A DNA stretch of 63,781 nucleotides, the filler included, from Stramenopiles sp. TOSAG23-6 (lineage: Eukaryota): NCBI GenBank assembly GCA_900128565.1. It is 9 parts of 9 records of this genome, joined end to end, with 100 filler letters (N's around TTAATTAATTAA, not from the genome) between each part and the next. Parts side by side here need not be neighbours in the genome. Positions count along the whole stretch, not along the records: positions 49,758 to 56,722 come from LT636624.1; 8 more parts are not named here. One strand, written 5' to 3'. A program made the translations under genes and the position numbers. Shown in pieces: positions 18,777-63,781 of this stretch. Every line of letters begins with the position of its first letter. Position 1 is the stretch's first letter. Below the pieces are notes generated by a model that did not search any database, was not told the DNA's origin, and saw only the letters and a list, made by a program, of their open reading frames with translations.

Positions 18777-19328
18777 TGTTATCAGTACTAGAATCTATCG
18801 TATTCTCAGTGTTTTCTTCGTAATTTTCATATCCCTGAGAATAGTATTCTTGTGATTCTTCGTAATTTCCTTCTGCGTAATAATTTCCGTATTCACTCTG
18901 TTCGTCGTAGCCTTCGTTGTAGTCGTATTCATTTTGATAGTAGGACTGTTGTGTATAGTCATATTGCTCTTGTGATGTACTGTTATGATCATATTGATAG
19001 TTGTTATAATCGTATTCTTCTTGGTCATAAGACATTTTTTGGTCTGTGTATCTTTTTGTGACTACGTCATTTTTGACTACTTGATCACAAGTTGTTACAA
19101 ACGTTTCATATCACATCCGATCCCGGTACTAGAATATTTGTAACGGATAAATAAATCTCTCCTCGTCGTATGTATCGATGACACTCTCTCGAGATTGATT
19201 GGATTTTTTAACAGTTCAAGTTGTCAAACGATTGCTTTAAAAAAAACATATACACGAATGCTCCGATTGGATGATACACACATTTTAAGCAGCACATTCA
19301 TTTTTTGAAGTTATAATATACCAGAAAG

Positions 19329-21219
19329 ATGTCCAATTCTAAGGGCCTTACTGACGTTGTGGCTTCTTCCGAAAATGTATGGTTGTTACTATGTGGAATG
19401 CACGTATTTTTGATGCAAGTTGGTTTCCTCGTCCTTGAAGTTGGAGCTGTACAGAAAAAGGCCGCCATCAACATTATATTTAAAAACTACGCGGATACTT
19501 GTTTAGGAGCACTTACATGGTTTGCGGTAGGCTTTGCAATAGCAAATGCAGATAATGGAGCGTTTTTGATGCGTAATCTGAAGTCAGGTTCGGAATTAAC
19601 AAATTGGTTTTTCTCTTTCACTTTTGCAGCAACGTCAGCAACTATTGTCAGTGGAGCTGTCGCAGAACGCACAAAGATATCAGCATACTTTTTCTATACT
19701 TTAGTAATAACTGGCTTTGTTTACCCTTTAGTAGTTCGACAAGTATGGAGTAGTGACGGAATATTTTCAGGTACAAATGCTGATAGGTGGCCTCGAAGTT
19801 TTGATCATTATGGTTTTATTGACTTTGCCGGTAGTGGGGTTGTTCACGCTGTCGGAGGTCTATGTGGTCTTGTTGGCGCGACACTAGTAGGTCCTCGTGT
19901 GGGCCGTTTTAGTACGAAATATTCGAATCAACGAAATATGAGCAGATTGTTAGGTCCTCTTTTACCGGAAGACAATTGGTTGCATCCTCGAAAACTAGCT
20001 GGACGATGGGGAGAGAAATATCCTATTTTTGCTACCAAGGGTCGCAAAATACCACCTCAGAATATTATATTCACCGCACTTGGTACTGGTCTTCTATGTA
20101 CGTTTTCATCATTCATTTTGAATTTATTTTTTTACCATGAAAATGTTGTACCTAATGATTTTTTTACGGAAAAAAAAAAATATTTTTCACAATACTTGGT
20201 TTGGATGGTTTAGTTTTAATGCTAGTTCTGGACCAGGGGTTACGAGCAACGGAACTTACACAACAGCTTTGGCGATTGTGAATACGACTCTTGCTCCTGC
20301 TAGTGCTTGCTTCACAGCACTTATTTTCACTAAATTTTTCTGGAATGTATATGATATTCAGATGTCACTTAATGCAATACTTGCAGGAGCAGTCTCTATC
20401 ACAGCATCTTGTGGCATTGTATCTCCTGCTGCATCTATATGTATTGGTGTTATTGGTTCTTTAATTCTTTTACTTTTTTCTTGGATTTTGGAAAAATTTG
20501 AAATTGATGATCCTCTAGATGCTTCTTCAGTTCATGGATTTTGTGGTATTTGGGGATGTCTTGCTGTTGGAATTTTTGCAACTGATGAAAAAGTAGCTGC
20601 TGGACTTAGTTTACCGGAAGGGAACTCTTTGGCAAATGGTAATCAATTTTTAATACAGTTATTAGGCATTGTTTGTATTACTATTTGGACCCTAACTTGT
20701 GCGTTTATTGTATTCTTTGGATTGGATAAAGTATACGTACGTTTTCACAATTAATTTCAAATTTAATTTTTTAGTACGAAATTTTGTACCTAACGATATT
20801 TTTACAAAAAAATATTTTTCACAATATACGGTGTGCGAGTGTCAGATTGTGTTCAATTATCTGGCGTTGATGTTCGAGAGCATGGATTTACATTGTATAA
20901 TCATGGTAGTCGTATTTCGTGTCCAAGTAGTTCATCAATGAACAAACCTCACAACCACAAAAATAAAGAATTTGACAATACTAATAATGATAAAAGTTGG
21001 GCTGAAAAAACTGCCGTAGCAGCGTACAAATCAATCTCAGGAAAACCTGAAATTCATATCACGATTCGTACAGAAGAAGAAAAAAACAAAAAAATGTCAG
21101 ATATCGAAATGATTGAAAGTAAAAAAACAGATCTTCAGAAAGAAAATTTAGTTGACCTTCCTAACTGGAGCCAGGAGAGGGATAATCTTGATTCCAAATT
21201 ATCTCTTCGAAAGAGGCAT
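19329..21219 (+). CDS. AMT: Ammonium transporter, mirror copy; introns 20098-20197 and 20737-20829, third intron from 21220
   Basis: Identical reverse complement of 14393-16283. Confidence 0.9.
20098..20197 (+). mobile_element. Introner intron GT..TT, preceded by AT
   Basis: This removal restores the Amt GLLWFGWF motif. Confidence 0.92.
20737..20829 (+). mobile_element. Introner intron GT..AC, preceded by AC
   Basis: Restores DKVY|GVRV (Amt GLRV-like motif). Confidence 0.88.
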
Positions 21220-21618
21220 GTATGTTTAAATTTTTTTTCAAATTCCAATTTATTTTTCGTACGAAATTTTGTACCTAACAAATTTTAGTTTTTTTTTTTG
21301 AAATATTNNNNNNNNNNNNNNNNNNNNNNNNNNNNNNNNNNNNNNNNNNNNTTAATTAATTAANNNNNNNNNNNNNNNNNNNNNNNNNNNNNNNNNNNNN
21401 NNNNNNNAGGCCATGACGTATCCATACCCAATGTTCATACAGTGAAGAAAGATATAATAAAAGTGATTTGGTCTGTTTTATATTTTTCAATAATTCTAAT
21501 TATTAATGACTTGCAAAAGCTTCTTTAACAACTTTTCTTCTTCGAATATCCTTAAGACTTCGTCTCTTTCGTCTCGTCTTCTTCTTTGTACTATCACCGA
21601 TAATAGTACCATCTTCTG

Positions 21619-28403: not shown

Positions 28404-30208
28404 NNNNNNNNNNNNNNNNNNNNNNNNNNNNNNNNNNNNNNNNNNNNTTAATTAATTAANNNNNNNNNNNNNNNNNNNNNNNNNNNNNNNNNNNNNNNNN
28501 NNNTAGGTACAAAATTTCGTACGAAAAAAAATTCGAATTTGAAAAAAAATAAAACATACATCCTCCATTGCTTACTTCCAATGACATATTCTCGACTATC
28601 TACTTTGATGTTGTCCTTTCGAGTAAAACTTTTTTGATTTGGTGGCTTTGTTTTCATGAATTTCGTAATTCTCTTTTCAGGTACATCATTTTGCACGTTC
28701 TGTTCATTTGACTCATTTGACTCATTCGACTCATTCTGCGTGGCTCGTTCAATGGAAGAGTCGTCGTCTCGGCGACGGAGTCGGTGCCTAACTGGAGTAT
28801 ATGCAGGATTTGCATCTGGAGGATGCTTATCCGAGTTTGTCACAGTGTTTTCCTTCGTCAATACACCATCTTCCAAAGTCGAATATTTCCCTTCTACGGG
28901 AGATTGCGAAGTAACTTTAATCGTTTGAGTAGTTTGAGGAATATTTTGATCCTTCGTAAGTTTATTCATAACTTTAATATAATCAGATATTTTACCATCC
29001 ATTGATTTGTGTATTTTGTCTTTTTCTTTCGTAGCAACTTGATTTGCCATTTGGGCAAGCGCATTGGAACGCCCTTTGATGTAAGCTGCTGCAGCTCGTT
29101 TTTTTGCTGTTCTATAAAGTTCTTTTTCGCGTGTATCACTCTTCTGTTTCAGAAGATCTATTTTTTTCTTTGCTTCAGTCTCCAATTCTGTGTTTTTCTT
29201 TTTATGTTTACGTATATCTCGTTGTAGTTTTGATGTGTGATTTCTTAATTGGGTGACCTCTTTTTCGTGTGCCAAGGATTGAAAATCAATCTCATTCTTA
29301 TGTTTAGCAAGTTGAATCTTCAAATGGTTATTGTGTTTCTTTACTTCATTTAATGATGTCACTTGAGTTTCTTGTGCTATTTCGATTTCACTCTTTAAAC
29401 TTTGCATTTCCTGTTCATTTTCATATTTATGCTCATTAAATTGTTTGTTAATGTCTTTGAACTCATCAACTTTTACTCCTAATTTTATTGTATATTCTTC
29501 GTGAATCTCGTTACTTGTATTCAAATGTTTACGAGCCAAAGAAGATTCTTCGTCTCGTGATTCATGTGCTTTCAAAGTTTCATTCTCCAAATGATTTATC
29601 ATACTCGCGTGCTCAGCAAGTTGAATCTCCAATTTGCTATTATGGTTCTTTACTTCATTTAACGATGTCGCTTGAATTTCTTGTAAAATTTCAGAGTCAA
29701 ATTGTAAACTTTGTATTTCCTGTTCATGTTGATATTTATGCTCATCCAATTGTTTGTGAATATCTTTAAACTTATCAACTTGCAGTCCTAATTTTATTGT
29801 ATATTCTTCGTGAATCTCGTTACTTTTATTTAAATGTTTACGAGCCAAAGAAGATTCTTCGTCTCGTGATTCATGTGCTTTCAAAGTTTCATTCTCCAAA
29901 TGATTTATCATACTCGCGTGCTCAGCAAGTTGAATCTCTAGTAACTCGTTAACTTTTATTTGTTTACTTTTTTCATTTACTTTATTTAGTGATTTTTTTT
30001 TCTAAATATACAACACTAGCTTGTTTTGCTTCCGCGAGTTTTGTTTTGGCCGTATGAAGCTCTTGTTGTAGATCTTTATACTGTATTGCATGTTTACTTG
30101 TGATGTGTTCAATATGCTTTGTATGCTGTATGTTCTGAGCCTGTAAAGTTTCAATTTCAAAATTGGTTTTCTCACTTTCGAAAGTCATTTTATTGACCAT
30201 ATCTTTGG

Positions 30209-35438: not shown

Positions 35439-35594
35439 GTATGTTTTATTTTTTTTCAAATTCGAATTTTTTTTCGTACGAAATTTTGTACCTANNNNNN
35501 NNNNNNNNNNNNNNNNNNNNNNNNNNNNNNNNNNNNNNTTAATTAATTAANNNNNNNNNNNNNNNNNNNNNNNNNNNNNNNNNNNNNNNNNNNN

Positions 35595-39231: not shown

Positions 39232-39724
39232 TTTTTTGTCTACACTCCAAATTCTTCTTTTAGCTGAGACTATATTATAATTTTTTGCCTACACTCCAAA
39301 TTCCAACAATGCTCCACTTCCTCTTGCTTGCTGAGACTGGTACATATTAATTTAAACTGGTGTAATAAATAATCATCAAATATATTTGACTTTGACACTC
39401 CTGTCATGATAAATTTCAAATTGACTTTTTTGTACTAAAATTCGTATCAAACGAATTTGTTTCTGTGACAAGAACATGAAATTCATTATATACCTAATGA
39501 ACTATATTGAGTTAGAGAAAACATTTTGTTTTGAATGTAAGACAAGAGCAACAATAATTTCAAGTAATTAGTGTTTTATATACAAATGGAAAGTACCACA
39601 ATTAACACCAGTATACTTAAATATATACAATACAAATACAAGTAACATATAAAGTCACATATTATTGTCATACTCGTGAGATACAGGTTAGTCGTACTAA
39701 CCCGTAAATTCATAAATTAAATGT

Positions 39725-49606: not shown

Positions 49607-50305
49607 TTCATTATGAAAAATATTTCAAAAATTAAAATCGTTAGGTACAAAATTTCGNNNNNNNNNNNNNNNNNNNNNNNNNNNNNNNNNNNNNNNNNNN
49701 NTTAATTAATTAANNNNNNNNNNNNNNNNNNNNNNNNNNNNNNNNNNNNNNNNNNNNTATGTAATGAAAACACATTATTAAGAATAATATACTTTTGTAG
49801 TTCTTGTAGTTAGGACTACACGTAATAAGTATACTACGTAAGTTGACTCAAGTGTAAATTCTGAGATGAAATTGAAAAAGAGATTTTTGATTTGAGATTT
49901 GGCATTTCGAAAAGTTTGAAATTTTGAATTTTTTGTTTTTTTTTTCGTACGAAATTTCATAGCTAACAAAAACAATTTAAAAAAAATATATTTTCCTACA
50001 ATAAATGTAAACAGAAGTTTTACTAGATATATTCTATTTAATTTAGAATTTGGTTTAGTAGAGAAAAAGAACTCATAGCATTGAGTAAACTGTTGTAATT
50101 CATACAAAAAAGTGCTTACTATTAGATTGAATTTAAATTAGATCACAGATAAAAAAAATGAATTTCTTAATTTATAGCGGCTTTTTTTGTTTGCGTTTTT
50201 TGACCACGTGTCGTCGTGCGTACCCAACCAACAAGAACTTCGAAGTTGTTCGGTACCACCAAGGTCTTCATATTACCTAATACTTGCGCAACGTAAAAAA
50301 GCATT

Positions 50306-51415
50306 ATGTTACAAATTGAAATGAATGACCTTTGTTGTCCAATTACACTGGATATATATAAAGATCCAGTTGTTGCTGCTGATGGTCACACGTATGAACG
50401 AGCTGCAATTTTGCGCCACTTTCAAACAAAGAATACGTCGCCTTTAACAAATGAAGTGTTGCCTAATAGAAATCTAGTACCAAACTTGCATTGTAAATCT
50501 CTATGTGTTGCATGGAAAGAAAAACAAGCAAGAATGAAGAGTGATAGTGTTGCTAAAGACAAAAAAGAAGATTTCGAGCGGTATACTATAGATGCAAATG
50601 CAGGTGATAGTGACGCACAATTCAATCTTGGTTTGTGCTATTTTTATGGTGATGGTGTTGCTGTAGACAAAAAAGAAGCTTTTAAGTGGTATACTAAATC
50701 TGCGAATGCTGGTAATAGTGACGCACAAAATAATCTTGGTTGTTGCTATGAAGATGGTCATGGTGTTGCTCAAGACAAAAAAGAAGCTTTTAATTGGTAT
50801 ACTAAATCTGCAAATGCAGGTAATAGAGATGGACAACATAATCTTGGTCATTGCTATAAAAGTGGTCATGGTGTTGCTCAAGACAAAAAAGAAGCTTTCA
50901 AGTGGTATTCTAAATCAGCTAATGCTGGTAATAGTAGTGCACAATGCAGTCTTGGTTTATGCTATGAAGATGGTGTTGGTGTTGCAGTAGACAAAGAAGA
51001 AGCTTTCAAGTGGTTTACTAAATCGGCTAATGCTGGTGATAGTGACGCACAAAATTATCTTGGTTTGTGTTTTATGGATGGTGAAGGTGTTGCTAAAGAT
51101 AAAAAAGAAGCTTTCAAGTGGTTTACTAAATCTGCAAATGCTGGTGATAGTTATGCACAAAACAAACTTGGTTATTGCTATGAACATGGTAATGGTGTTG
51201 CAGTAGACAAAAAAGAAGCTTTCAAGTGGTATATGAAATCTGCTAATTCTGGTGGTAGTATGGCACAACATGATCTTGGTGTTTGCTATTTTAATGGTAT
51301 TGGTGTTGCTGAAGACAAAAAAGAAGCGTTCAANTGGTTTACTAAATCAGCTAATGCAGGTTATATACATTCAAAGGAATGGATTCGTCGTTTTTTTTCA
51401 GAAAAAAGTATATAA
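50306..51415 (+). CDS. U-box plus SEL1-repeat protein
   Basis: CCPITLDIYKDPVVAADGHTYERAAI; about seven 36-aa SEL1 repeats. Confidence 0.92.
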   Translation: MLQIEMNDLCCPITLDIYKDPVVAADGHTYERAAILRHFQTKNTSPLTNEVLPNRNLVPNLHCKSLCVAWKEKQARMKSDSVAKDKKEDFERYTIDANAGDSDAQFNLGLCYFYGDGVAVDKKEAFKWYTKSANAGNSDAQNNLGCCYEDGHGVAQDKKEAFNWYTKSANAGNRDGQHNLGHCYKSGHGVAQDKKEAFKWYSKSANAGNSSAQCSLGLCYEDGVGVAVDKEEAFKWFTKSANAGDSDAQNYLGLCFMDGEGVAKDKKEAFKWFTKSANAGDSYAQNKLGYCYEHGNGVAVDKKEAFKWYMKSANSGGSMAQHDLGVCYFNGIGVAEDKKEAFXWFTKSANAGYIHSKEWIRRFFSEKSI

Positions 51416-51708
51416 CTGTAAAGAGTAAGAATATACATAATAATTTCAAATAAAAAAAACTAGTTTTGAAGTTTTATAAAAATAATTTAAAATTTGTTTT
51501 TTTTTCATCTTCTTCTCTTCTTCAATCAACACATGTAATTGCTTTCTAATTCCAATTAGAATTTTCAAATTAATTTAAAATATATACCGTATACGCGTTA
51601 CGCAGTACCTATAACGTCTGAGATCAGCATGGCTGCTTTATTTTATCTATCAAATCTTAAAATTAAATTAATAAATCAAAAATGATTCTGCCAATCAAAA
51701 AAAAGGTA

Positions 51709-51716
51709 CCGGGTAA
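51709..51716. promoter_or_regulatory. CCGGGTAA promoter motif
   Basis: About 140 nt upstream of ATG 51853. Confidence 0.5.
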
Positions 51717-51852
51717 CGTACGAATTTCTCTATAATTTCTCAGTTCCTGAGCAGTTCTTTTGGCCGGCCATCGATCAGCCTCAGGAACTCAAAAACAACT
51801 ATAAACAAGTTTTTGTAGTTATAAAAGTTTCTTTCATCTTATCGTATAAAAG

Positions 51853-52434
51853 ATGGTAATGGTAACTAAAGCTATGTTGCATGCACATTATGTCGCTAGA
51901 CGTGCTGTTGATCTAATGGTCTTTTCCATTCTTGCAATTGCAATGACTGGAATATTTTGCTGGCAATATGATCTGGATTTTCTTAAATTTGTGACGCATG
52001 GTGGCTCAAAAATTGCGGAAACTCGAACCCGCACAAGTTTTATCTTTTGGTGTTTAGCATTTTTTGCTGGTGTTGGTTCATATGTTGCATCAAAGAATCG
52101 TGATTATTATCTGTACATGGTTAACTTTATTACACTTTGCCTCGTATCTGCGTGGGGTAAATGGACCATGGTAACTTGGTTCGTATTCTTCAAAAAATGG
52201 CACGGACTTCGACATGCTGAGTCTGATTACAAGAAACATACTGTTCATTTTGTCTTGGAGTTTCTTGTCGATTTCCTTATCCTTGTGGATACCGTATGGG
52301 CATGTTATACTGTGTATCGCGCAATGAAGCATGCTAAGCAGTGGGGTGGACGGTTACCTCTCAAATCTGAAAAGCATGAAGGAGGAGTGTTGGTTACTCC
52401 TCAACCACAATTGGTTGCTGTTGTTGCTGCATAA
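51853..52434 (+). CDS. Hypothetical 4-TM membrane protein
   Basis: Four hydrophobic helices. Confidence 0.65.
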   Translation: MVMVTKAMLHAHYVARRAVDLMVFSILAIAMTGIFCWQYDLDFLKFVTHGGSKIAETRTRTSFIFWCLAFFAGVGSYVASKNRDYYLYMVNFITLCLVSAWGKWTMVTWFVFFKKWHGLRHAESDYKKHTVHFVLEFLVDFLILVDTVWACYTVYRAMKHAKQWGGRLPLKSEKHEGGVLVTPQPQLVAVVAA

Positions 52435-53124
52435 ATATTCCATAGTGATTATTTATAATATGGGGGTTTTCTTTTATGAAAAAATAAAGAAAACTGTACA
52501 ATCCTTTGGATGCTGAGATATACTAATTTTATATATAATAAAAGATTGTCGTTCGACATTGAAAAACCAATTTTTGTTTTTTTCAGCTCATATTTTATTG
52601 ATTATTTTATTGATTTTGTACCAATTAACTACGAAATATACAAATCGGACACCAAACGCACATACAACACGCCTATTAACAATATAAAAAAGCTTGGAAC
52701 ACCCTATCCATATGCATGGGGTGTAATATATAATATATATAATATAATATATGAGTCTTGTAGAGTTCAATTTATTTTGTATTTATTTTCACATTGATAA
52801 TAAAAAAAAAATTACATATGTACACGGGTATCAGGTAGGTATATTANACTATAGTCTANTATAAAGTCTTTGAACGTCTTTTTGTGAAATTTTAATGTAA
52901 ACAACACGAAATAGAAAAAAAAAAAAAAAACGTAACTGTTACTAGTACCAATAACAGTCACACAGTTCGAGTTGTGTCAGATCAAGTCTCAACAAGCCTC
53001 AACATCCAATCAAAAACCAGTAAAAAAAACGTTTTTATACTATTAAAAAATGAGCCATGAACCGAAATTTTCATTGGATGTATAATAAATAGTATTCATC
53101 AAGTATATTTTATAGTATAGTAAC

Positions 53125-55488
53125 ATGTCTGTGCATAGACGAATACCAAGGTTAAATAACAGTCAAATAGAGAAAACGAAAAAAAACATGACAAAATTAA
53201 AAAACACACCGAAAAATGAATTCTTCTCGTTCGACGACTCAAAAGGAATTCTACAACGTTTTTATCCATCAAACAATAGTATATGGAATATATTTATATT
53301 TGTGTGTTTTGTTCTCATCATATCTCTCTGTAACGAACGTATTAGTACAGCGTTTATAGTTAAAAACCAAGAGAATACTATAGAACAACCAGGGATTGTA
53401 TATACCAGAATTGATCAAACATATAACTGGGAATATGAAGAAACTGGAAATGGACAGAGATTTAGTGAGCAAAAAACAATGTTTGATCCAACGGAAACTA
53501 ATACGGGTGATGACTTAAACAACATTGCTAAAGGAAACGATCCAAATAGTGGAGTAGAAGATTTTTGTTTTGAACAATTAAAAAGTCCTTCAGGCAATTC
53601 GACTGTCATTTGGGTTGAAACAACTCGTTGCTCCACCGTACTCGCTGATTACTTGTTACTATCTACTGTTTTACTTTTTATTATATTAACTCTATATTGC
53701 TTTTGTAGATACGGACGAGTATCATGGAGTACTGAAGGTCATACTAAATCTATACAAGCTTTGTGTTGTAGTGAAGATGGTTATACACTCTACTCAGCAT
53801 CATTAGATGGAACAGTTAAAATTTGGAATGTTGAAGATGGGGTTTGCATTAAAACTCTTAGAGGACACAAAGGTAAACCTGTTTTGGCTTTATGTTTAGG
53901 CAAAAAAAGTACCAAAACATATCTATTTACAGGCGGTGCTGGCGGTATGGCTTTAATGTGGGATGTTAAAAATATTGCTGCATGGCGTGGTGCTCTCCAT
54001 GAAGCACCAAAGTCCCATTTGACGCAAGGTACAGTTCAATTAAATATTACTGCACATGCTCCATATCCAATAACATCTTTATTCGTAAGTATTGATGGTT
54101 GTTCGTTAATTACTGGTGGTGGTGATGGGTATTTAAGAGCGTGGAATTTAGTCTCAGGCGATTGTACGTTTGCAATTTCAAAATTTTAATTTTTTTTTTT
54201 CGTACGAAATTTTGTACCTAATGATTTTTTTACAAAAAAATATTTTTTCACAATACTTTAATTAAAACAATTAGAGGTCATGATTTTTTTGTGCGTCAAG
54301 TTTTATGTGATGACTCTATCAATACAGTTTATTCTTGTAGTGATGATTTAACAATAAGAGCATGGAATGCTACGAGTGGAGGTTGTTTGCATACCCTAGC
54401 ATGTATGTTTTATTTTTTTTTTTCCGGTAAAAAAAAAATCAAATTTTTTTTTCGTACGAAATTTTGTACCTAACGATTTTTTTACAAAAAAATATTTTTC
54501 AGAATACATCACATAAAGATGCAGTTACATGTATTTGTTTAACTAAAGATGATCAAATTATAATATCTGGATCTAGAGATGATTCAATTAAATTATGGAA
54601 TGCTAAAACAGGACTTCTCTTACGTACTTTAATGGGACATGATGAGGATGTATGTTTTATTTATTTTTTTTTTTTAACCGGAAAAAAAAAAATCAAAAAT
54701 TTTTTTTTTTGAAAAATTTTGTACCTAACAGTTTTTTTTTGATTTTTTACTAAAAAAATATTTCTCCAAAATACATGTACAATGTTTATGTTCATCAACA
54801 AATCCTAAAGATAGATTTTTTTCTGGATCTCGAGATAATACAATAAAAATCTGGTCCATTACAACTGGAAAGTGTCTTCAAACACTCCGCGGTCATTGCA
54901 TGTTTTATTTTTTTTTTTTTCATACGAAATTTCGTACCTAACAAATTTTTTATTTTTTTTTTAACAAAAAAATCAATTTTTTTTTTCGTACGAAATGTTG
55001 TACCTAACAAATTTAAGGTTTTTTTTTGAAATATTTTTCCAAAATACTTGTATTGATACAACATCAATGAATTATTTTACAGATAATTCATATACTTCAC
55101 ATAAAAACACTAAAAATACACAATTTAAAAAAGATGATGTTGGTGGTGTATTTGCTATTATTGCGAGTATAGATGGTAATACATTATATAGTGGAGGAAG
55201 TGACTCTAAAATTATTATTTGGGATATTTCAACGCCTCTGATGAAGACGGGGAAAATATTGCTACAATTTGATATTAATGATGTTAAAAAAAATTGGTCA
55301 TTCTGATTCAATACTCTGTTTTGCATTACATTCAATGAAAAACACGAAACCTAAATATTTATTTTCTGGTTCTGCTGATCAAACAATTATCATATGGGAT
55401 GTTAATGAGCCTAAAAATATTAAAATTTTGAATCGAAAATTAAAAGTGTTGAGAGGTCATACAGCAGTTACAAGTTTACAAGTTGATT
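53125..55488 (+). CDS. Membrane-anchored (2 TM) WD40-repeat protein; 4 introner introns and +1 frameshift near 55290
   Basis: GHTKSIQALC...SASLDGTVKIW; GH..WD repeats restored by splicing. Confidence 0.85.
54164..54258 (+). mobile_element. Introner intron GT..TT, preceded by TT
   Basis: Restores GDLIKTIRGH. Confidence 0.9.
54403..54509 (+). mobile_element. Introner intron GT..AT, preceded by AT
   Basis: Restores HTLASHKDAV. Confidence 0.9.
54650..54776 (+). mobile_element. Introner intron GT..AT, preceded by AT
   Basis: Restores GHDED|VQCL. Confidence 0.9.
54898..55049 (+). mobile_element. Introner intron GC..TT, preceded by TT, double core
   Basis: In-frame join LRGHCIDT. Confidence 0.82.
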
Positions 55489-55580
55489 GTATGTTTTATA
55501 TGAATTTCTAATTTAATTTTTTTTCATACGAAATTTCGTACCTAACGATTATTTTTTTGAAATATTTTTTCACAACTCAT
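55489..55580 (+). mobile_element. Introner copy GT..AT whose flanking exons are out of phase
   Basis: Consensus match; donor is phase 1, acceptor is phase 2. Confidence 0.7.
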
Positions 55581-56540
55581 TATCACCTGTGCACGATTCA
55601 AAAAGAGTACAAAAATTGTAAACGATAAAAATAAATCTGAACTTTTTGCTGTAGGCGATTCAATAGGCGCTGTGATGATTTGTAGTGCTGATACTAAGAA
55701 CCCTGGTCCAATTGCTACTTGTAATGGTCATTCTGGAGAAATTAATGATTTGGATTGGGATTCGACTGGTCAATATTTGTTAACAGCGTCGTCTGATTTT
55801 ACTGTACGAGTACGTTTTCATTATGAATTTATGAATTTATTATTTTTTTGGTACGAAATTTTGTACCTAAACAAATTTTTGATTTTTTTTTTTTTTGCCA
55901 TGTACGTTTTCATCATGAATTTCAAATTTATTTTTTTTCATACGAAATTTTAATTTTTGTGTTTGCACGCAATTCTGTAGCTAACAAATTTTGAATGTAG
56001 AACATAGTTTTTAATTCCACAGATTTGGGATCTCAGATCACAATCTGTCACAGAAAAAATGTTAGGTACAAAATTGGGTACGAAAACAGAGTACACGAAA
56101 TCTCAGGATTTGAATGAAAATAAAAAAAATACAGAAAATACATTGATTCGGTTGACTGCTTTAAAAATAATTTATACTCATGGAAAAATCAGCTGTTGTC
56201 GATTTTGTCCGGAAAATAATAATTGCTTTGTTGCGGGTATTTCATGTAAAGGCGGAAAGAATTCACTACGTGTATACAATATCTGTCCTGATGTATGTTT
56301 TCATCATGAATTTCGAATTTATTTTTTTTTCATAGGAAATTTTGTACCTAACAAAAAACCAAAAAAAAATGTAAATATTTTCACAAAATCCATGTTACAC
56401 TTAAATCTGAAATGATAACTTCACATCTCTCTCCAGGTCCTGAATATATTGAAATGCGTATAAAGGATAGTATGACCTCTCTGGAATTTTCTTCGGCATC
56501 TCAATTATTATTCTCTGACCAGAGAGGGCTCATTTGGTCT
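55581..56540 (+). CDS. WDR13-like WD40 protein, partial; introns 55810-56022, 56293-56393 and from 56541
   Basis: ITCARF, GHSGEINDLDW...ASSDFTVRIWD, CCRFCPENNN. Confidence 0.65.
55810..56022 (+). mobile_element. Compound introner intron GT..AG with a second copy starting at 55902
   Basis: Two GTACGTTTT starts; restores TVR|IWD. Confidence 0.8.
56045..56141 (-). mobile_element. Antisense introner copy inside WD40 exon, flanked by AT/AT
   Basis: Minus strand reads GTATTTT...TTTTCGTACCCAATTTTGTACCTAAC...GACAG. Confidence 0.7.
56293..56393 (+). mobile_element. Introner intron GT..AT, preceded by AT
   Basis: In-frame join to ORF 56412. Confidence 0.85.
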
Positions 56541-56823
56541 GTATGTTTCATTTTTTTTAATTTCCTCTTTATTTGTATTTTCTTCTGTAGTATTATTTGT
56601 TGAATTCATTTTATCTAGTTCAGTTGAATTTGAAATAATTTGAAAATCTCTAGCAAACGATATTGACAAATGATCTACAGCACTTGATGAATTTGGAATT
56701 TCTGTATGATGCATCCAAAGACNNNNNNNNNNNNNNNNNNNNNNNNNNNNNNNNNNNNNNNNNNNNTTAATTAATTAANNNNNNNNNNNNNNNNNNNNNN
56801 NNNNNNNNNNNNNNNNNNNNNNT

Positions 56824-59800
56824 GGGCGAATCACAGTAAGTGCAGGACATTCAACTACATCTACTGGTGCTACAGGAGGTGCAATCTCCATAATCACTGG
56901 TTATGGTGTTTTATCTTCAAGTGGATCATTTAGCATAAAGACAGGTAATGCTGGTACAGTAGAAGGTGTATCAGGTTCCATCCATATTAGTTCAGGAAGT
57001 GCTAAAAGTTCTAGTGGTCATATTGTAATGCGTTCTGGAAGCGCGGTAAGCGGAGCCGGGGGTAGTATCAGTGTTGTTGTCGGAACTGGAACAGCATCAC
57101 AAGGTGGCCGTGTTATCATTAAAGCAGGTGAATCATCCTCCGCAACAGATGGCACTGGTGGTTCATTATCGATCATTTCAGGTTACAGTACTTCATCATC
57201 AAGCGGTGCATTTAGTATTCGCACAGCAAATGCAGGATCTCTTGGTGTCAGTGGATCTCTTCAATTGATGTCGGGAACTAGTTCAAAAGGTCGTAGTGGT
57301 GAAATAATATTGAGAAGTGGGAATGCAACATCCGGGGCTGGTGGTAGTGTAAGTTTAGCCGTTGGTGTAGGTACAAGCTCTTCAGGTGGGCGGGTCACAG
57401 TTAGTGCAGGAAAAGTTCAAAATTCTACTAATGTTGGTGGTTCAATATCTTTGATATCTGGTTATGGTGGAAGTGTGGCAGATAGTGGTTCGTTTAGTAT
57501 AAAATCTGCATCTGGTGATAATAGTGGTATCTTGAATATAAGTACAGGATCCTCTAGTGATACAAGTAGTGGAGATGTCATTATTCGGTCAGGTGATGCT
57601 ACAAATGGCAGTGTATCTGGTAGTGTTTCTATATATGCTGGAAGTTCAGTGTCCAGTCCGGGCACTGTGAATATATCTGGCGGCAATTCACCTGATTCTG
57701 GGGTTGGTGGAGACATATCAATGATATCTGGTTATGGGTCTACGTCATCAAGTGGATCATTTACAATACAAACTAATGATGCGGGAAGTACTGGTATTTC
57801 TGGAAGCTTAAATATTTTTACTGGTGCAGCAAATAAAGGGAGTAGTGGTTTTATCAGTATGCGGTCTGGAAATGCAACATCAGGAGCCGGTGGGAGTGTG
57901 AGTGTATCCGTTGGATCTGGAAGTGTAAATACTGGTGGTCGTATTACTTTGTCTGCTGGCGAAACTGAAGATTCAACTTCTATGACAGGAGGCGCAGTTT
58001 CTATGGTCAGTGGTTATGGAACGGCTGCATATAGCGGCACATTCAGCATTCGCACAGCAAATGCAGGATCTAGCGGCTCTAGTGGGACGATAAGAATTGT
58101 TACAGGCAGTTCATCTGCTGGAAATACTGGTGCATTGGTGTTACGAAGTGGTCGATCCTTAGGTGCTAGTGGGGGGAGTATTAGTCTCATTGTAGGAACA
58201 GGGGACACAACTTCTGGTGGTAATATTGTTATGACAGCCGGTAGATCGGATGCAGTTATTGGGGGTGACGTATCAATTGTTAGTGGGTATGGTCGAGCAA
58301 AATCAAGCGGTCACTTTTCCTTTGCAACCGCAAATGCAGGAACATCTGGTGTATCAGGGTCTATGAACATTAGTACAGGCACTGCCAGTGGAGGAAGCAG
58401 TGGGCATATTCTTCTGCATTCTGGTATATCTACAGGTGGTGCTGGTGGTAGTTTGAGTTTAGTTGTCGGTAGCGGCAGTTCTGCTCATGGGGGGCGTATT
58501 ACATTTACTGCAGGCGAATCGTCAACATCAACTGGAGGGGCGATTTCAGTGAGTTCAGGATATGGCTCCGATTCATCGAGTGGCGCTTTTAGTATTCGCA
58601 CTTCTAATGGAGGCATATCGGGAGCTTCAGGCAATATCTCATTAATCACTGGTACAACAAGTTCTGGTTCAAGTGGTGCAATTCAGCTTCTTTCTGGAAA
58701 TGCAACGGGAGGCTCAGGGGGTAGCATTCGTATTGCAGTAGGCAGTGGTAGTACTTCTCAAGGAGGTAGAATTACAATGCGTGCAGGTGGAACAGATGCT
58801 TCATCAGAAGCTACTGGTGGATCTATTTCCTTGGTTAGCGGATTTAGTAGTTTAACATCCAGTGGATCATTCAGTATAATGTCGGCGGATGGGGGCTCAA
58901 ATGGAGTGAGTGGCGATTTAAATTTTTCTACAGGTGTATCAAATAATGGAAGCAGTGGGTCTATAAAATTGACCACTGGTTTAGCTTCGAGTGGTACTAG
59001 TGCTGGTATGTCCACAACTTCATCTGGGGGGGCAATTTCTTTGGTTTCTGGGTATAGTCAAGCCACTTCAAGTGGCGCATTTAGTATCCGCACAGCAAAT
59101 GGTGGGTCAAGTGGTGTTTCTGGGTCGCTATCTTTTAGTACCGGAACAACATCCAAAGGAAGCAGTGGGTCGATAAATATAAAAAGTGGAAATGCCACGA
59201 AAGGCATGGGTGGTAGTATTAACATAACTGTTGGAACTGGTTCAATAAATCAAGGTGGACGGGTTATCATATCTGCCGGAGCAATAACCCCAGCCTCTAG
59301 TAGTTCAAGTGATACTAGCATTGCAAAAACTGGGGGCTCTCTTTCTATGACAAGTGGTTATTCGAGTGCATCCTCAAGTGGGTCGTTTAGCATCAAAACT
59401 GCAAATGCAGGCACCAATGGTGTCACTGGTTCTATTGAAATGAGTACAGGTACAACATCTCTTGGCTCTAGCGGGCATTTAATTTTACGTAGTGGGACTG
59501 CTTCAAATGGCACTGGTGGTAGTGTCAGTTTTGTTGTGGGGAGTGGAAATGCCAACACCGGAGGTCGCATTACAATATCTGCGGGGAATACGAAGACCGC
59601 AAATGGCAAAACTGGAGGCGCAGTATCAATTATTTCAGGATATGGAAGTTCATCTTCTAGTGGCGCATTTAGTATTAAAACAGCAAATGCAGGTACAACC
59701 GGGGTTAGTGGGTCATTAAGGCTTGCTACAGGTACAACAAGTTCTGGCTCAAGCGGGCATATTTTGATGCGGACTGGGAATGCTAATAAGGGCGCTGGTG

Positions 59801-62800
59801 GAAGCATTAGTATTGTAGTAGGTTCGGGAAATAAAGCAGGAGGCGGACGCATAACTTTGGTAGCAGGTAGCACATCTGACACAAACTCCAATGGTGGCTC
59901 AGTGTCCATCAATTCTGGATACGGAAACACTTCAAATAGTGGGGCTTTTAGTATTCGTACTGGAATAGGCGCATCAAGTGGCGAGGTCCATATTAGCACT
60001 GGAAATGCAACGAATGGTACAAGTGGTACAATGATACTTCGAACGGGTTCTGCAACCGGAGGTGCAGGTGGATCTATAAGTATGATGGTAGGTGCCGGTG
60101 AAGTTGATGTAGGAGGCTCTATCACAATATCGGCTGGCGAGAGCACTTCAGTGACTGGAGGTGCATTATCATTATCTTCTGGTTTTGGTAGATCAACATC
60201 AAGTGGGTCATTTACAGTGAAAACACCAGATGCAGGAATATCAACAGGGGGTGTAAGTGGTGCACTTTCATTTTATAGTGGTTCAGCTAGTAACGGAAGT
60301 AGTGGTTCTATGGCATTTACTACCGGAAGGGCAACACTTGGTGTTGGTGGCAGTATAAGCATCGCTGTTGGTGCAGGCACAGTGAATAATGGAGGCAGAA
60401 TTGTTATTTCAGCAGGTGAAAGTACAACTCAGACTGGTGGTTCTATCAGTCTCTCCTCAGGTTTCGGAACCAATAGTTCCAGTGGTGCATTTTCCATTAA
60501 AACTGCAAATGCTGGATTCGCAGGAACAAGCGGCAAAATGTATATAAAATCTGGTGATGCTTCAGCTGGAGGAAGTGGTGCTATAGCAATAAGATCGGGG
60601 AATGCGGGTACTGGTGCTGGTGGTAGTATGAGCATAGTAGTCGGTAATAGCGGATCAGCACAAGGTGGCCGTATAACTATTTCTGCCGGAGATGTTACAG
60701 GTTATTGTAGTATCGCGTCATATTTGAACAAATCCGATTGTATTGCAGGAGGAGGTAGTTGGACATCCGGTGATGCTACTGGGGGTTCAATTTCCATAGC
60801 TTCAGGTTTTAGTGTAGCCACTTCAAGTGGCGCCTTTAGCATAAAAACTGCAAATGCAGGAACTACAGGAATTAGTGGAAGTCTATATCTTGCAACAGGT
60901 ACTACAAGTAAAGGCAGCAGCGGATCTATGTTGTTTCGGACAGGTGTCGCGACATCAGGGGCTGGAGGAAGTATTAGTATTATGGTCGGCAGTGGTCAAA
61001 CAGGGTCAGGTGGCCAGATTACTATTAGCGGAGGATCGTCTTCAACCGGAAAAGGTGGCGATTTATCGCTGACATCTGGGTACGGCTCAACTTCAGGGAG
61101 TGGTTCATTTAGTATTAAAACTGCTTCGAGTTCGAGTGATGGCACCAGTGGTGGACTTCACTTATCAACTGGGAGTTCACAAAACGGCAAAAGCGGTATA
61201 GCGATTCTTCGTTCTGGTGCTGCATCTAACGGTGCTGGTGGAAATATTAGCATATCAGTCGGGAGTGGTAACGCAAACGAAGGTGGCCGTATAACAATCA
61301 GTGCGGGTGAGTCAACAGCATCTGACGGAAATGGAGGATCAATTTCAATCGCAAGTGGATTTGGACGAAATACAAATAGTGGATCATTCAGTATAAAAAC
61401 TTTGGCTGGTGGTAGTTCAGGCACAAGTGGATCTCTTCATATATCTACAGGAAATGCTAACTGTACCTCAGGTTCATACACTGATATCTCAAGTGGCGCG
61501 GTTGTAGTTCGTACAGGAAATTCAACCAATGGCAGGGGTGGAAATATTAGTCTTTTAGTTGGTGCCGCGTCAGCTGGAAGCGGTGGCAACATTGTGGTAT
61601 CTGCCGGTGCTATGACGTCCTCGTCAGCTTCAACTGGTGGAGCAGTTTCATTGACTTCAGGATATTCCTCTTATAATGATAGTGGACCATTTAGTATTCG
61701 CACCGCCGACTCTGGAAATTCGGGAGGATCTGGATCGCTTACCATTAAAACAGGAACTTCAAGTGGTGGAGCTAGTGGTGCAATTACACTACGCACGGGT
61801 TCTGCCACACTAGGTGCAGGTGGCAGCATTAGTGTCATTGTAGGCAGTGGTAATACAGCAACAGGTGGTCGAATTACAATATCTGCTGGTACCAGCGAAG
61901 AATCAACTGGTGGTTCAATATCACTATCACCTGGATATGGTAGGGCTACATCTAGTGGTTCATTCAGCATAATTACCCCAAATGCTTTTTCAGGAGTTAG
62001 CGGTTCTCTTTCATTCAAGACAGGCACCGCAAACGTTGGAAGTTCCGGTGCAATTATCTTACAAACGGGTAATGCCATTCAAGAAGATGGAACCTCAAGT
62101 GGAATGGGCGGTGGTATCAGTATCATTGTTGGAAATTCGAGTGGAAGCGGTGCGAATGGTGGAGATGTTACAATCAAAGCTGGCGACACAGATACTGGAA
62201 GTGGTGGTGGTGTACGAATTGTAACAGGAAGCGGTAATGGAGGAACCCCTGGTGATTTTGTTACAAGTCTTGGTGCTGCTGGTAGCGACAACGAACTGAA
62301 GCTAAACCCTACCAGTTCTTACTTTAAAACTGTAGGCGAATTACTTTTTGCAGCTGGTGATTATTCCAATGGTGCGTATGACGCAAGTTTGGATTTAAAA
62401 AGTTCTGGAGATATTGAATTGAAAGGCAAAGGAACAGTAGATTTCACAACTACAAATACATCTGCGGAATCATTTGTTTTAGGGACTACTGGTGTTGGAG
62501 GGACGGTGAAGGTGACTGGAAAAACATTTTTTCGCCACGGCATTGGCTTTGGCCGATACTCTGGTAGTGGGAACTTTTCTGATTCACCAATTTTGTACTA
62601 TATGAATCAGGGAGTGATAGACTTTTACGGTAGCCACTGTGAGGGAAACTATACGACAGGTTCATTTACCACCGACATAGGTGTTTCAGACTACTGTCAA
62701 ATAACATTATCGGATGGTGGCGCGTATATGCAGGCCAGACACCAACTTACTGAGCCAGATGGAGGATGGGAAGGTAGTAATACTTACTTTAAAATATTTG

Positions 62801-63132
62801 TTACACCGCCTACGAGATTGGGCACAGATAAATATGAAGAAGGGGTTACAGATTGGGCATGTGCACCATATGGTACCGACGATAGTAGTGCGACTCTTCT
62901 TGCATCTGTATCTTCTTCAACCGCAACACAATGCTCTTTGGCATGGATGTCTTGGGTACAATCTACAGACAGTTTGGATAAGGTATATGCATATATCCGT
63001 TTGATTAATGTTAAAGACGATTCATTAACTTTAAAAATTGGAGAAAATGAATGGGAATGGCAGTATCTTGCATTTGGGCATAGATGTATCGGTTCAACAT
63101 CAAGTTTAGCTTGTTATAGCAATTACGAATGA
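56824..63132 (+). CDS. Giant Gly/Ser/Thr-rich repeat protein (predicted beta-solenoid, adhesin-like), 5' partial
   Basis: >2100 codons open from contig start; recurring GGSISIxxGxG / GGRITISAG / SSSGAFSIKTANAG units. Confidence 0.85.
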   Translation, partial: GRITVSAGHSTTSTGATGGAISIITGYGVLSSSGSFSIKTGNAGTVEGVSGSIHISSGSAKSSSGHIVMRSGSAVSGAGGSISVVVGTGTASQGGRVIIKAGESSSATDGTGGSLSIISGYSTSSSSGAFSIRTANAGSLGVSGSLQLMSGTSSKGRSGEIILRSGNATSGAGGSVSLAVGVGTSSSGGRVTVSAGKVQNSTNVGGSISLISGYGGSVADSGSFSIKSASGDNSGILNISTGSSSDTSSGDVIIRSGDATNGSVSGSVSIYAGSSVSSPGTVNISGGNSPDSGVGGDISMISGYGSTSSSGSFTIQTNDAGSTGISGSLNIFTGAANKGSSGFISMRSGNATSGAGGSVSVSVGSGSVNTGGRITLSAGETEDSTSMTGGAVSMVSGYGTAAYSGTFSIRTANAGSSGSSGTIRIVTGSSSAGNTGALVLRSGRSLGASGGSISLIVGTGDTTSGGNIVMTAGRSDAVIGGDVSIVSGYGRAKSSGHFSFATANAGTSGVSGSMNISTGTASGGSSGHILLHSGISTGGAGGSLSLVVGSGSSAHGGRITFTAGESSTSTGGAISVSSGYGSDSSSGAFSIRTSNGGISGASGNISLITGTTSSGSSGAIQLLSGNATGGSGGSIRIAVGSGSTSQGGRITMRAGGTDASSEATGGSISLVSGFSSLTSSGSFSIMSADGGSNGVSGDLNFSTGVSNNGSSGSIKLTTGLASSGTSAGMSTTSSGGAISLVSGYSQATSSGAFSIRTANGGSSGVSGSLSFSTGTTSKGSSGSINIKSGNATKGMGGSINITVGTGSINQGGRVIISAGAITPASSSSSDTSIAKTGGSLSMTSGYSSASSSGSFSIKTANAGTNGVTGSIEMSTGTTSLGSSGHLILRSGTASNGTGGSVSFVVGSGNANTGGRITISAGNTKTANGKTGGAVSIISGYGSSSSSGAFSIKTANAGTTGVSGSLRLATGTTSSGSSGHILMRTGNANKGAGGSISIVVGSGNKAGGGRITLVAGSTSDTNSNGGSVSINSGYGNTSNSGAFSIRTGIGASSGEVHISTGNATNGTSGTMILRTGSATGGAGGSISMMVGAGEVDVGGSITISAGESTSVTGGALSLSSGFGRSTSSGSFTVKTPDAGISTGGVSGALSFYSGSASNGSSGSMAFTTGRATLGVGGSISIAVGAGTVNNGGRIVISAGESTTQTGGSISLSSGFGTNSSSGAFSIKTANAGFAGTSGKMYIKSGDASAGGSGAIAIRSGNAGTGAGGSMSIVVGNSGSAQGGRITISAGDVTGYCSIASYLNKSDCIAGGGSWTSGDATGGSISIASGFSVATSSGAFSIKTANAGTTGISGSLYLATGTTSKGSSGSMLFRTGVATSGAGGSISIMVGSGQTGSGGQITISGGSSSTGKGGDLSLTSGYGSTSGSGSFSIKTASSSSDGTSGGLHLSTGSSQNGKSGIAILRSGAASNGAGGNISISVGSGNANEGGRITISAGESTASDGNGGSISIASGFGRNTNSGSFSIKTLAGGSSGTSGSLHISTGNANCTSGSYTDISSGAVVVRTGNSTNGRGGNISLLVGAASAGSGGNIVVSAGAMTSSSASTGGAVSLTSGYSSYNDSGPFSIRTADSGNSGGSGSLTIKTGTSSGGASGAITLRTGSATLGAGGSISVIVGSGNTATGGRITISAGTSEESTGGSISLSPGYGRATSSGSFSIITPNAFSGVSGSLSFKTGTANVGSSGAIILQTGNAIQEDGTSSGMGGGISIIVGNSSGSGANGGDVTIKAGDTDTGSGGGVRIVTGSGNGGTPGDFVTSLGAAGSDNELKLNPTSSYFKTVGELLFAAGDYSNGAYDASLDLKSSGDIELKGKGTVDFTTTNTSAESFVLGTTGVGGTVKVTGKTFFRHGIGFGRYSGSGNFSDSPILYYMNQGVIDFYGSHCEGNYTTGSFTTDIGVSDYCQITLSDGGAYMQARHQLTEPDGGWEGSNTYFKIFVTPPTRLGTDKYEEGVTDWACAPYGTDDSSATLLASVSSSTATQCSLAWMSWVQSTDSLDKVYAYIRLINVKDDSLTLKIGENEWEWQYLAFGHRCIGSTSSLACYSNYE

Positions 63133-63380: not shown

Positions 63381-63728
63381 TCAAACTTGCAATTCATCAG
63401 AAGTCTGAATAGACAACACCCTAACATTTTCTTTGGTGTTAATGATAGGATGTAAATGATCACGAAGGAAGTCTTCTGTTTGTTCTACACAACTACCAAT
63501 AAAAAGACTAGGATCGAGAAGATCATCCAATCGATGATGTACAGCAGAAAAAAGAGGATCTTGTGATATTCGATTCAACAGATCATTTTGAGCGCCTTCT
63601 GACTTGACACGTTCACTAGCGGCAAGGGAGTGAGTGCGGATGGCTTCATGCAGTTGTTGGCGACATCCTCCCGCTTTAACACATGCCATTAGAATTTCTT
63701 CTGTCGCCATAAAAGGAAGTTCCGCCAT
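63381..63728 (-). CDS. ADSL: Adenylosuccinate lyase, last exon; preceded by a partial introner to the window end
   Basis: ELPFMATEEILMACVKAGGCRQQLHEAIR...NDLLNRI...LLDPSLFIG. Confidence 0.92.
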   Translation of the reverse strand: MAELPFMATEEILMACVKAGGCRQQLHEAIRTHSLAASERVKSEGAQNDLLNRISQDPLFSAVHHRLDDLLDPSLFIGSCVEQTEDFLRDHLHPIINTKENVRVLSIQTSDELQV

Positions 63729-63781
63729 ATATTTTGAAAAAATATTTCAAAAAAAAATCGTTAGGTACAAAATTTCGTACG

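What the first reader, a model, noticed from the sequence alone, without database searches (positions are those of the whole stretch)
56043..56143. Inverted element inside a WD40 exon, kept in frame
A 97-nt antisense copy sits between AT and AT, a net 99 nt or 33 codons. It reads without a stop as SVTEKMLGTKLGTKT...ENT. Removing it with one AT gives the compact IWDLRSQLIRLTALKIIYTHGKISCCRF. Insertion in either orientation supports DNA-level transposition over reverse splicing, and suggests antisense inserts survive only when frame-preserving.
Basis: partly seen in the sequence, partly recalled or inferred. Interest (0 to 1): 0.7.

Follow-up and report, generated by a model that had tools for sequence, protein, structure and literature searches.

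The report
Reversed mobile intron read as protein
One copy of a jumping DNA element that normally forms introns sits backwards inside a protein-coding exon of an uncultured marine protist, where it lacks the signals for splicing and most likely adds 33 amino acids to a loop of the protein.

Summary
Window 56045-56141 is a diverged, reverse-oriented copy of the ~100-nt intron family that fills this window. A family profile hits it on the minus strand (E 9e-6). Its local alignment score is 43.5, against 20.1±2.6 for shuffles and 15 in the plus orientation. Its unusual 3' tail recurs at one other family copy. AT flanks it on both sides, so the unit is 99 nt. It lies in exon 8 (56023-56292) of an expressed multi-WD40 gene, and the reading frame stays open. 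Pfam places it in the linker between two WD40 repeats.

RNA contigs show two sense copies in the same gene spliced out at non-AG ends. Identical flanking dinucleotides in 17 of 24 elements (AT, TT, AC, GT) point to DNA-level insertion.

Three things are not shown:
- Retention of the 99 nt in mRNA.
- An empty site. Four searches found no orthologue.
- The rule that only frame-preserving copies survive. This is a single case.

WDR13 identity is unsupported. Earlier notes of this scan describe the GT..AT intron family on other pieces of this genome. None retrieved mentions a reversed exonic copy.

The parts
56045..56141 (-). Reverse-oriented, diverged copy of the ~100-nt intron element family. 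On the minus strand it reads GTAT...CGTACCCAATTTTGTACCTAAC...CTGTGACAG.
   Evidence: nhmmer E 9.2e-6 on the minus strand. Smith-Waterman 43.5 vs shuffles 20.1±2.6. Tail 11-mer shared with the copy at 39460-39470.
56043..56044 (.). AT beside the element's short 3' tail (minus-strand sense). Putative copy of a 2-bp target-site duplication.
   Evidence: Read from the sequence. AT is the commonest matching flank in the family (12 of 17 matching pairs).
56142..56143 (.). AT beside the element's GTAT 5' end (minus-strand sense). Putative second copy of the duplication.
56023..56292 (+). Exon 8 of the WD40 gene, 90 codons. Codons 8-40 come from the reversed element.
   Evidence: The spliced model gives one open 818-codon frame. 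Pfam WD40 matches aa 47-85 of this exon at profile positions 4-38 (E 0.12, below cut-off). The exon's first three residues complete the repeat begun in exon 7.
55655..55809 (+). Exon 7, one WD40 repeat lacking its last three residues.
   Evidence: Pfam WD40 35.7 bits (cut-off 27), profile positions 3-36 of 39.
55810..56022 (+). Intron 7. Two sense family copies in tandem or nested, GT...AG ends. Boundaries inferred from the frame.
   Evidence: nhmmer hits 55810-55880 and 55902-56010. Frame continuity in the model.
56293..56393 (+). Intron 8. Sense family copy, GT...AT, AT on both sides. Boundaries inferred from the frame.
   Evidence: nhmmer E 1.2e-14. TSD table. Model. Predicted to pair with the reversed copy in pre-mRNA.
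54403..54509 (+). Intron 2. Sense family copy, shown spliced in RNA as GT...AT (equivalently 54400-54506).
   Evidence: Poly-A metatranscriptome contig X7 record 26 joins 54399 to 54507.
54898..55049 (+). Intron 4. Sense copy with two cores, shown spliced in RNA with GC...TT ends (equivalently 54896-55047). TT is the flanking duplication.
   Evidence: Poly-A metatranscriptome contig X6 record 19 joins 54895 to 55048.
53125..56540 (+). Host gene. N-terminal hydrophobic stretches followed by about ten WD40 repeats, 9 exons. The 3' end runs off the piece, which ends at 56722.
   Evidence: Model. Pfam WD40 70.4 bits on exon 1. RNA contigs on exons 1-5.
39380..39477 (+). Degenerate family copy in DNA with stops in all six frames. 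It shares the short tail TTTCTGTGACA with the reversed copy.
   Evidence: (E 0.001).

Best explanation
A member of the genome's MITE-like intron family inserted at the DNA level, in reverse orientation, into exon 8 of a WD40-repeat gene. Family members consist of a 2-bp duplication, then GTAYG...CGTACGAAATTTTGTACCTAAC...ATAC, then the duplication again. In sense orientation they are excised as the element plus one copy of the duplication. Backwards, the copy gives the sense transcript no GTAYG donor and no CTAAC branch site, so it is not spliced. The inserted unit is 99 nt and the frame it hit has no stop. It is therefore read through as 33 extra, K/T/N/E-rich residues in the linker between two WD40 repeats, a place where this protein carries other long loops.

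Shown: family membership and orientation, the open frame, the position in the linker, presence in an independent DNA sample, expression of the gene, and non-AG splicing of two sense copies in it.

Inferred: the insertion event itself (no empty site seen), retention in the mRNA, translation, and tolerance.
For: Homology and orientation.

Frame: the 818-codon open model needs these 99 nt read through. Only this frame of the three is stop-free.

Position: exon 7 ends at WD40 profile position 36 and exon 8 begins with the last three residues. The next repeat starts at exon-8 residue 47 (profile position 4, so position 1 falls near residue 44). The linker is thus about 40 residues with the insert and about 7 without it.

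Plus-strand splice signals: there is no GT at 56043-56045, and the reversed branch box reads GTTAG.

Gene activity: RNA contigs from two poly-A metatranscriptomes cover exons 1-5 and carry two exact splice joints.

DNA-level insertion: matching flanks of four different kinds in 17 of 24 elements.

Age: the insert is present, with at most 1-2 differences, in contigs of a different sample. That sample's exon 1 differs from the window at 12 of 311 and 8 of 577 positions.
Against: - No read or contig was shown to run through 56043-56143 in RNA. One search lists only part of its tables, and both caps are spent.
- No orthologue or empty allele was found, so 'insertion' rests on homology to the mobile family alone.
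- The copy lacks the family's usual 3' terminus, so the second AT cannot be proved to be a duplication.
- The window carries a 1-nt frameshift at 55286 in an A-run. It is absent from the X1 contig and is probably an assembly error, but gene decay is not fully excluded.
- This organism's 3' splice sites are unorthodox, so an unknown excision route cannot be ruled out from sequence.
Confidence: 0.6

Rival explanations
1. The 99 nt are removed from the sense mRNA after all, by a non-standard route. This could be recognition of the ...AAAATAC+AT end, which the reversed 5' terminus mimics, or excision guided by RNA pairing. The mature protein would then have the compact junction.
For: Sense copies in this gene are cut at ends that are not AG and follow the element's terminus plus 2 nt. 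The plus strand at 56132-56143 reads ...ACAGAAAATAC+AT, close to the family's 3' end. The plus-strand unit is formally AT...AC.
Against: No GTAYG or other GT at the upstream boundary and no CTAAC upstream of 56143. The U12-type boxes (recalled consensus ATATCCTT and TCCTTAAC) are absent by reading. The stop-free frame and 3n length would then be an unneeded coincidence of about 3%.
Confidence: 0.12
2. The element first inserted in sense orientation and served as an intron at this site. It was later flipped in place, by recombination between its short inverted termini or by a small inversion, and survived because the flipped unit happened to be 3n and stop-free.
For: The family has short inverted ends (GTAT...ATAC). 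AT lies on both sides. The WD40 gene carries sense copies in most repeats.
Against: The reversed copy has no ATAC-type terminus on its tail side, so there is no obvious substrate for terminal recombination. It needs two rare events instead of one. Other copies lie in non-genic or reversed contexts, so orientation-free insertion does occur.
Confidence: 0.1
3. The copy is a normal sense intron of a minus-strand transcript that overlaps the WD40 gene. It would be antisense only by accident of overlap, which leaves an RNA-level insertion route open.
For: On the minus strand it is a textbook intron: GTAT...CTAAC, 16 nt, CAG, 97 nt long.
Against: No minus-strand ORF of 60 or more codons spans or flanks 55950-56300. 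No minus-strand joint was listed (table cut). The contigs carry no strand information.
Confidence: 0.06
4. The gene is decaying, so the open frame over the insert means nothing.
For: One frameshift at 55286 in the window.
Against: The X1 contig lacks the extra A (table 4). An 818-codon frame is otherwise open across 9 exons. Spliced poly-A RNA exists.
Confidence: 0.05
5. Chance resemblance of AT-rich coding sequence to the repeat.
For: Only 41 nt align in the local profile search, and the core is nearly palindromic.
Against: The Smith-Waterman score is about 9 sd above shuffles and far above the plus orientation. The exact 11-nt tail is shared with another copy at the same relative place, with about 0.04 exact occurrences expected by my own composition estimate.
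Confidence: 0.02

Closest known systems
Introner elements of Micromonas and other algae (Simmons et al. 2015, PMC4540971, passages read; Gozashti et al. 2022, PMC9860276, passages read; Huff et al. 2016, recalled only and not held)
   Same: Many near-identical short introns in unrelated genes. Target-site duplications. One splice boundary is supplied by the duplication. Non-autonomous, MITE-like.
   Different: The sense copies here end in the duplicated dinucleotide (AT, TT and others), not AG. The flagged copy is reversed, sits in an exon and is apparently not an intron at all. Simmons et al. state that each IE lies in a transcription unit in sense orientation and that IEs are always on the coding strand.
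Introners and non-canonical introns of Amoebophrya (Farhat et al. 2021, PMC7789003, passages read)
   Same: Repeated introns with inverted ends and short direct repeats that overlap the exon/intron boundaries. Non-GT/AG boundaries.
   Different: There the direct repeats are 3-5 nt and the inverted repeats 8-20 nt, with many splice motifs. Here there is one family with a 2-nt repeat, a very short inverted end, and a conserved GTAYG and CTAAC. In the passages I read, no reversed exonic copy is described.
Transposon sequence taken into coding regions (for example antisense Alu exonization; only the search listing of PMC3575813 was seen, the rest is general knowledge)
   Same: A mobile element in reverse orientation ends up as part of the protein-coding message.
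   Different: Alu exonization works by creating splice sites inside an intron. Here the element appears to have landed directly in an exon and is read through, because it lacks splice signals in that orientation.
U12-type AT-AC introns (consensus recalled)
   Same: The plus-strand unit begins AT and ends AC.
   Different: The conserved 5' box and branch box are absent by reading. This is not a member.

Membership tests
Introner / MITE-like intron-generating element family of this genome | Sequence similarity to many other copies in unrelated genes | tested here: met
   The 17-mer core has 46 matches vs 0.51 expected. The profile gives 50 hits at E<=0.001 in the window, and the target scores E 9.2e-6 on the minus strand. 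Smith-Waterman 43.5 vs 20.1±2.6.
Introner / MITE-like intron-generating element family of this genome | Flanking target-site duplication | tested here: inconclusive
   For the family, 17 of 24 elements have identical 2-nt flanks. For the target, AT lies on both sides, but the tail-side terminus is a short variant and AT is common, so duplication cannot be proved.
Introner / MITE-like intron-generating element family of this genome | Removed from the host gene's mRNA as an intron | tested here: inconclusive
   Two sense copies in the same gene are spliced in RNA contigs. For the target no RNA piece or joint was listed. The sequence lacks a donor and a branch site on the plus strand.
Introner / MITE-like intron-generating element family of this genome | Sense orientation relative to the host transcript | tested here: not met
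   The target is on the minus strand and the gene is on the plus strand. Nine plus-strand hits and this one reversed hit lie in the gene. One further minus-strand hit is an echo of a palindromic core.
WD40 repeat protein (Pfam PF00400) | Repeats scoring above Pfam's cut-off of 27 bits | tested here: met
   Exon 1 scores 70.4 bits over 3 stretches and exon 7 scores 35.7 bits. Exon 8 alone scores only 13.5 bits.
   No WDR13 model is among the Pfam hits. The best 150 phmmer hits are large generic WD40 proteins matching only residues ~195-345 of exon 1. No named WDR13 sequence was compared.
U12-type AT-AC intron (plus strand) | Conserved 5' splice box and branch box (recalled consensus) | tested here: not met
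   By reading 56043-56143 neither box is present.

The most novel reading that the evidence does not exclude
The reversed copy may be more than a tolerated passenger. In the pre-mRNA it is predicted to form a 49-bp duplex with the sense copy that is intron 8. The mean pair probability is 0.92, and the duplex energy is -39.8 kcal/mol against -17.3±3.3 for shuffles. The duplex covers that intron from just after its donor (56296) to its CTAAC branch site. A similar duplex is predicted with intron 7. A backwards introner in an exon could therefore act as a built-in brake or switch on the splicing of its neighbours, or as a source of double-stranded RNA, while also donating new coding sequence. At genome scale, such reversed survivors would be direct evidence that a family whose 3' cut site is set by its own target duplication spreads as DNA.
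Probability: 0.12. Interest if true: 0.6.

Novelty: new variant of a known kind. Interest (0 to 1): 0.4.

Why it matters
Introner families were long reported only in sense orientation, and this was used to argue for spread through RNA by reverse splicing (Simmons et al. 2015, PMC4540971, passages read). A reversed copy fixed inside a coding exon is the kind of survivor that DNA-level, orientation-blind insertion followed by selection predicts. This copy is 3n long and stop-free, in a family with variable 2-bp flanking duplications. It also shows how such elements can add protein sequence directly. As a single case without RNA proof it is an illustrative data point and not a demonstration. Its value is the clear genome-wide test it suggests. 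My searches for a published case found none, but they were keyword searches of open-access text only.

Tried and rejected
- Own genome: not held, so no genome-wide survey of reversed copies was possible.
- Orthologues: exon 8 against the 5.8-billion protein set gave nothing at near and longer lengths. The N-terminal 200 residues at longer lengths gave nothing. phmmer of exon 1 against 1.84 billion representatives gave only generic multi-WD40 giants matching residues ~195-345, none covering the N-terminus. The JGI metagenome scan gave one locus, L001, at 50% identity over 28 residues. On reading, L001 is unrelated intron-less DNA.
- RNA over the insert: laid two poly-A metatranscriptomes. The depth bins there (X6 16.2 and 1.91; X7 1.32 and 0) are mixed with repeat matches, and the piece and joint tables were cut. 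Neither retention nor removal can be read from them. No 99-nt skip was among the 15 joints shown (451 were not shown).
- Close kinship with the neighbouring element at 55902-55993: Smith-Waterman 30, lower than with distant copies. A local inverted duplication is not favoured.
- Extension of the element's 3' end into the IWD codons, as MAFFT suggested: rejected. Those codons complete a canonical WD40 repeat.
- The minus-strand ORF 49778-50137 over a plus-strand copy: it is low-complexity junk upstream of a U-box/Sel1-like gene and not a second exonic case.
- Earlier notes of this scan by words and by sequence: nothing on reversed copies.
- Huff et al. 2016 could not be read.

Full report
**Setting.** The window is nine pieces of about 7 kb joined by N-linkers. 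The finding lies in the piece 49758-56722. No whole genome is held for it. Earlier notes of this scan, made on other pieces of the same genome, describe a family of ~100-nt look-alike introns that start GT and mostly end AT, in an uncultured marine protist. I did not test the taxon. None of the notes retrieved mentions a reversed copy in an exon.

**The family in this window.**
- The 17-mer core GAAATTTTGTACCTAAC occurs 46 times with up to 3 mismatches, against 0.51 expected.
- A profile built from 25 sense copies of the window gives 50 hits at E<=0.001. This count includes the copies it was built from, duplicates caused by palindromic piece ends, and a few reverse-strand echoes of the nearly palindromic core.
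- The aligned copies read GTAYGTTTT, then a variable T-rich stretch, then TTTTCGTACGAAATTTTGTACCTAAC, then a T-rich stretch, then TGAAATATTTTTCCAAAATAC.
- One search printed 25 rows for 24 different elements. 17 have the same two bases on both sides: 12 AT, 2 TT, 2 AC, 1 GT. Seven differ. One of the seven is the nested element at 55810, whose 3' end my pattern mis-set.
- Matching non-AT pairs are what a 2-bp target-site duplication predicts. A fixed terminal AT would not give them.

**The host gene.**
- Removing seven element-bearing intervals and one extra A at 55286 gives a single open frame of 818 codons from 53125 to 56540. The extra A is absent from the X1 contig (table 4).
- Pfam finds WD40 repeats above cut-off in exon 1 (70.4 bits) and exon 7 (35.7 bits).
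- Two poly-A metatranscriptome runs hold contigs on exons 1-5.
  - X7 record 26 joins 54399 to 54507. This excises GT...AT.
  - X6 record 19 joins 54895 to 55048. This excises an element with GC...TT ends, where TT is the flanking duplication.
- The gene is therefore expressed. In this gene the unit removed is the element plus one copy of the flanking dinucleotide, whatever that dinucleotide is.
- The label WDR13 has no support.

**The flagged stretch.**
- Exon 8 runs 56023-56292. Its first three codons finish the WD40 repeat of exon 7.
- After four more codons the sequence reads AT, then 97 nt, then AT (56043-56143). The next repeat follows, matching Pfam WD40 positions 4-38 at exon residues 47-85 (E 0.12, below cut-off).
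- The reverse complement of the 97 nt is a family member.
  - nhmmer gives E 9.2e-6 on the minus strand, and no plus-strand hit.
  - The best pairwise local score is 43.5, against 20.1±2.6 (max 28) for 200 shuffles and 15 for the plus orientation.
  - The alignment covers positions 9-93.
- The copy is more diverged than most sense copies: 20.7 bits for its core-only hit, against mostly 35-64 bits for full-length sense copies.
- It lacks the usual 3' terminus and ends CTAAC-N16-CAG instead. That tail is not exon sequence. Its 11-mer occurs exactly twice in the window, the other time just after the core of a degenerate copy in non-coding DNA at 39380-39477.
- The copy is no closer to the neighbouring element at 55902-55993 than to distant ones.

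**Frame.**
- The 99-nt unit is read as 33 codons without a stop. The other two frames have 2 and 3 stops.
- Among 23 sense copies, the unit (element plus 2 nt) is a multiple of three in 5. Their reverse complements are stop-free in 10 of 69 frames.
- Roughly 3% of reversed insertions would therefore be harmless in this sense. One survivor with both properties is what selection would leave, but it is a single case.

**Independent DNA.** Contigs of a 2024 seawater metagenome (X4) cover 55965-56143 (1 other letter) and 56128-56298 (2 other letters). They cover the insert and both junctions, and the first runs across the left junction without a break. The same run differs from the window at 12 of 311 and 8 of 577 positions in exon 1. 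The insert is therefore not an assembly artefact, and it is shared by somewhat diverged populations.

**What could not be shown.**
- RNA through the insert. One search's depth bins there are dominated by repeat matches, its tables were cut, and the caps for laying reads and finding runs are used.
- Orthologues or an empty site. Searches found nothing. One search found only generic WD40 giants. One search returned one spurious locus.
- A genome-wide survey of reversed copies.

**Other reversed or non-genic copies in the window.**
- A minus-strand copy at about 2709-2811 begins a few bases after the stop codon of a 228-codon plus-strand ORF. Its host transcript is unclear.
- By my reading (not a formal count), the other strong hits run in the same direction as the long ORFs beside them.
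- In the WD40 gene, nine hits are sense and one is reversed. One further reverse-strand hit is a core echo.

**Mechanism.**
- The most likely reading is a DNA-level insertion in reverse orientation. The copy cannot be spliced from the sense transcript and is read through as a 33-residue addition to an inter-repeat linker. That linker would be about 7 residues without it and is about 40 with it.
- The rivals are excision by an unorthodox route, in-place inversion of a former sense intron, a sense intron of an overlapping antisense transcript, gene decay, and chance. They are weighed in their own section.

**A side effect worth testing.**
- RNA folding of 56023-56400 pairs the insert with intron 8 over 49 base pairs, from 56296 to the branch site. 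The mean pair probability is 0.92.
- The duplex energy is -39.8 kcal/mol, against -17.3±3.3 for shuffled inserts.
- The whole-stretch fold itself is not unusual (z -1.27). The pairing simply follows from the inverted repeat.

**Comparison with the literature.**
- Simmons et al. 2015 (PMC4540971, passages read) state that each introner element lies in a transcription unit in sense orientation. They also state that, because IEs are always on the coding strand, reverse splicing was proposed as the route of spread.
- Gozashti et al. 2022 (PMC9860276, passages read) describe target-site duplications and splice sites recruited from them.
- Farhat et al. 2021 (PMC7789003, passages read) describe non-canonical repeated introns with direct and inverted repeats.
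- In keyword searches of open-access text I found no description of a reversed introner retained in frame. Huff et al. 2016 could not be read.

**Verdict.** As a single, RNA-unverified case on top of a family this scan has already described elsewhere, it is of moderate interest.

Noticed in passing
window 7059-7158, 14205-14304, 21308-21407 and further sites about every 7.1 kb: The window is nine separate pieces joined by N44 + TTAATTAATTAA + N44 linkers. Features must not be read across them.
   Followed up: yes
window 14305-~16300 vs ~19300-21307; 28504-28559 vs 35439-35494: Piece ends are exact reverse complements of each other; coordinates of paired copies sum to 35612 in the first piece. 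This looks like chimeric inverted joins, as made by whole-genome amplification of single cells. It inflates copy counts.
   Followed up: partly
window 55279-55293: The A-run has one A too many in the window and breaks the WD40 frame. The high-depth X1 contig lacks it (table 4), so it is a likely homopolymer assembly error.
   Followed up: yes
window 54898-55049: An intron with two family cores (tandem or nested copies) is removed as one unit in RNA, with GC...TT ends. This shows that the 3' cut follows the element end plus its flanking duplication and not a fixed dinucleotide.
   Followed up: yes
window 54164-55049: Four successive WD40 repeats each carry a family copy within a few codons of the GH dipeptide, at start-to-start spacings of 252, 255 and 279 nt, but not at identical codon positions. 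This could be a regional target preference or old repeat-plus-intron duplication; it is unresolved.
   Followed up: no
window 2709-2811 (minus strand): A family copy with a GT...AG look lies reversed, a few bases after the stop codon of a 228-codon plus-strand ORF (2020-2706). It may be a second copy that is antisense to its neighbouring gene, in a harmless 3' position.
   Followed up: partly
window 55810-56022: Intron 7 holds two family copies one after the other and, judged by the reading frame, ends with an ordinary AG some 27 nt beyond the second copy's AT end.
   Followed up: partly
window 55489-55654: This intron has a family copy whose own AT end would put the next exon out of frame. 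The frame requires the AG 73 nt further on, so some copies seem to use a downstream conventional acceptor.
   Followed up: no
window 56824-63129: A 2102-codon open frame in a GC-richer piece (46%) has a ~280-nt periodic glycine-rich repeat (families D3 and D7). A family copy at 63721-63781 ties the piece to the same genome.
   Followed up: no
window 50306-51415: An intron-less gene with a U-box-like start followed by many Sel1-like repeats (KKEAFKWYTKSANAG...). A degenerate family copy lies upstream at 49916-50008 in non-coding DNA.
   Followed up: no
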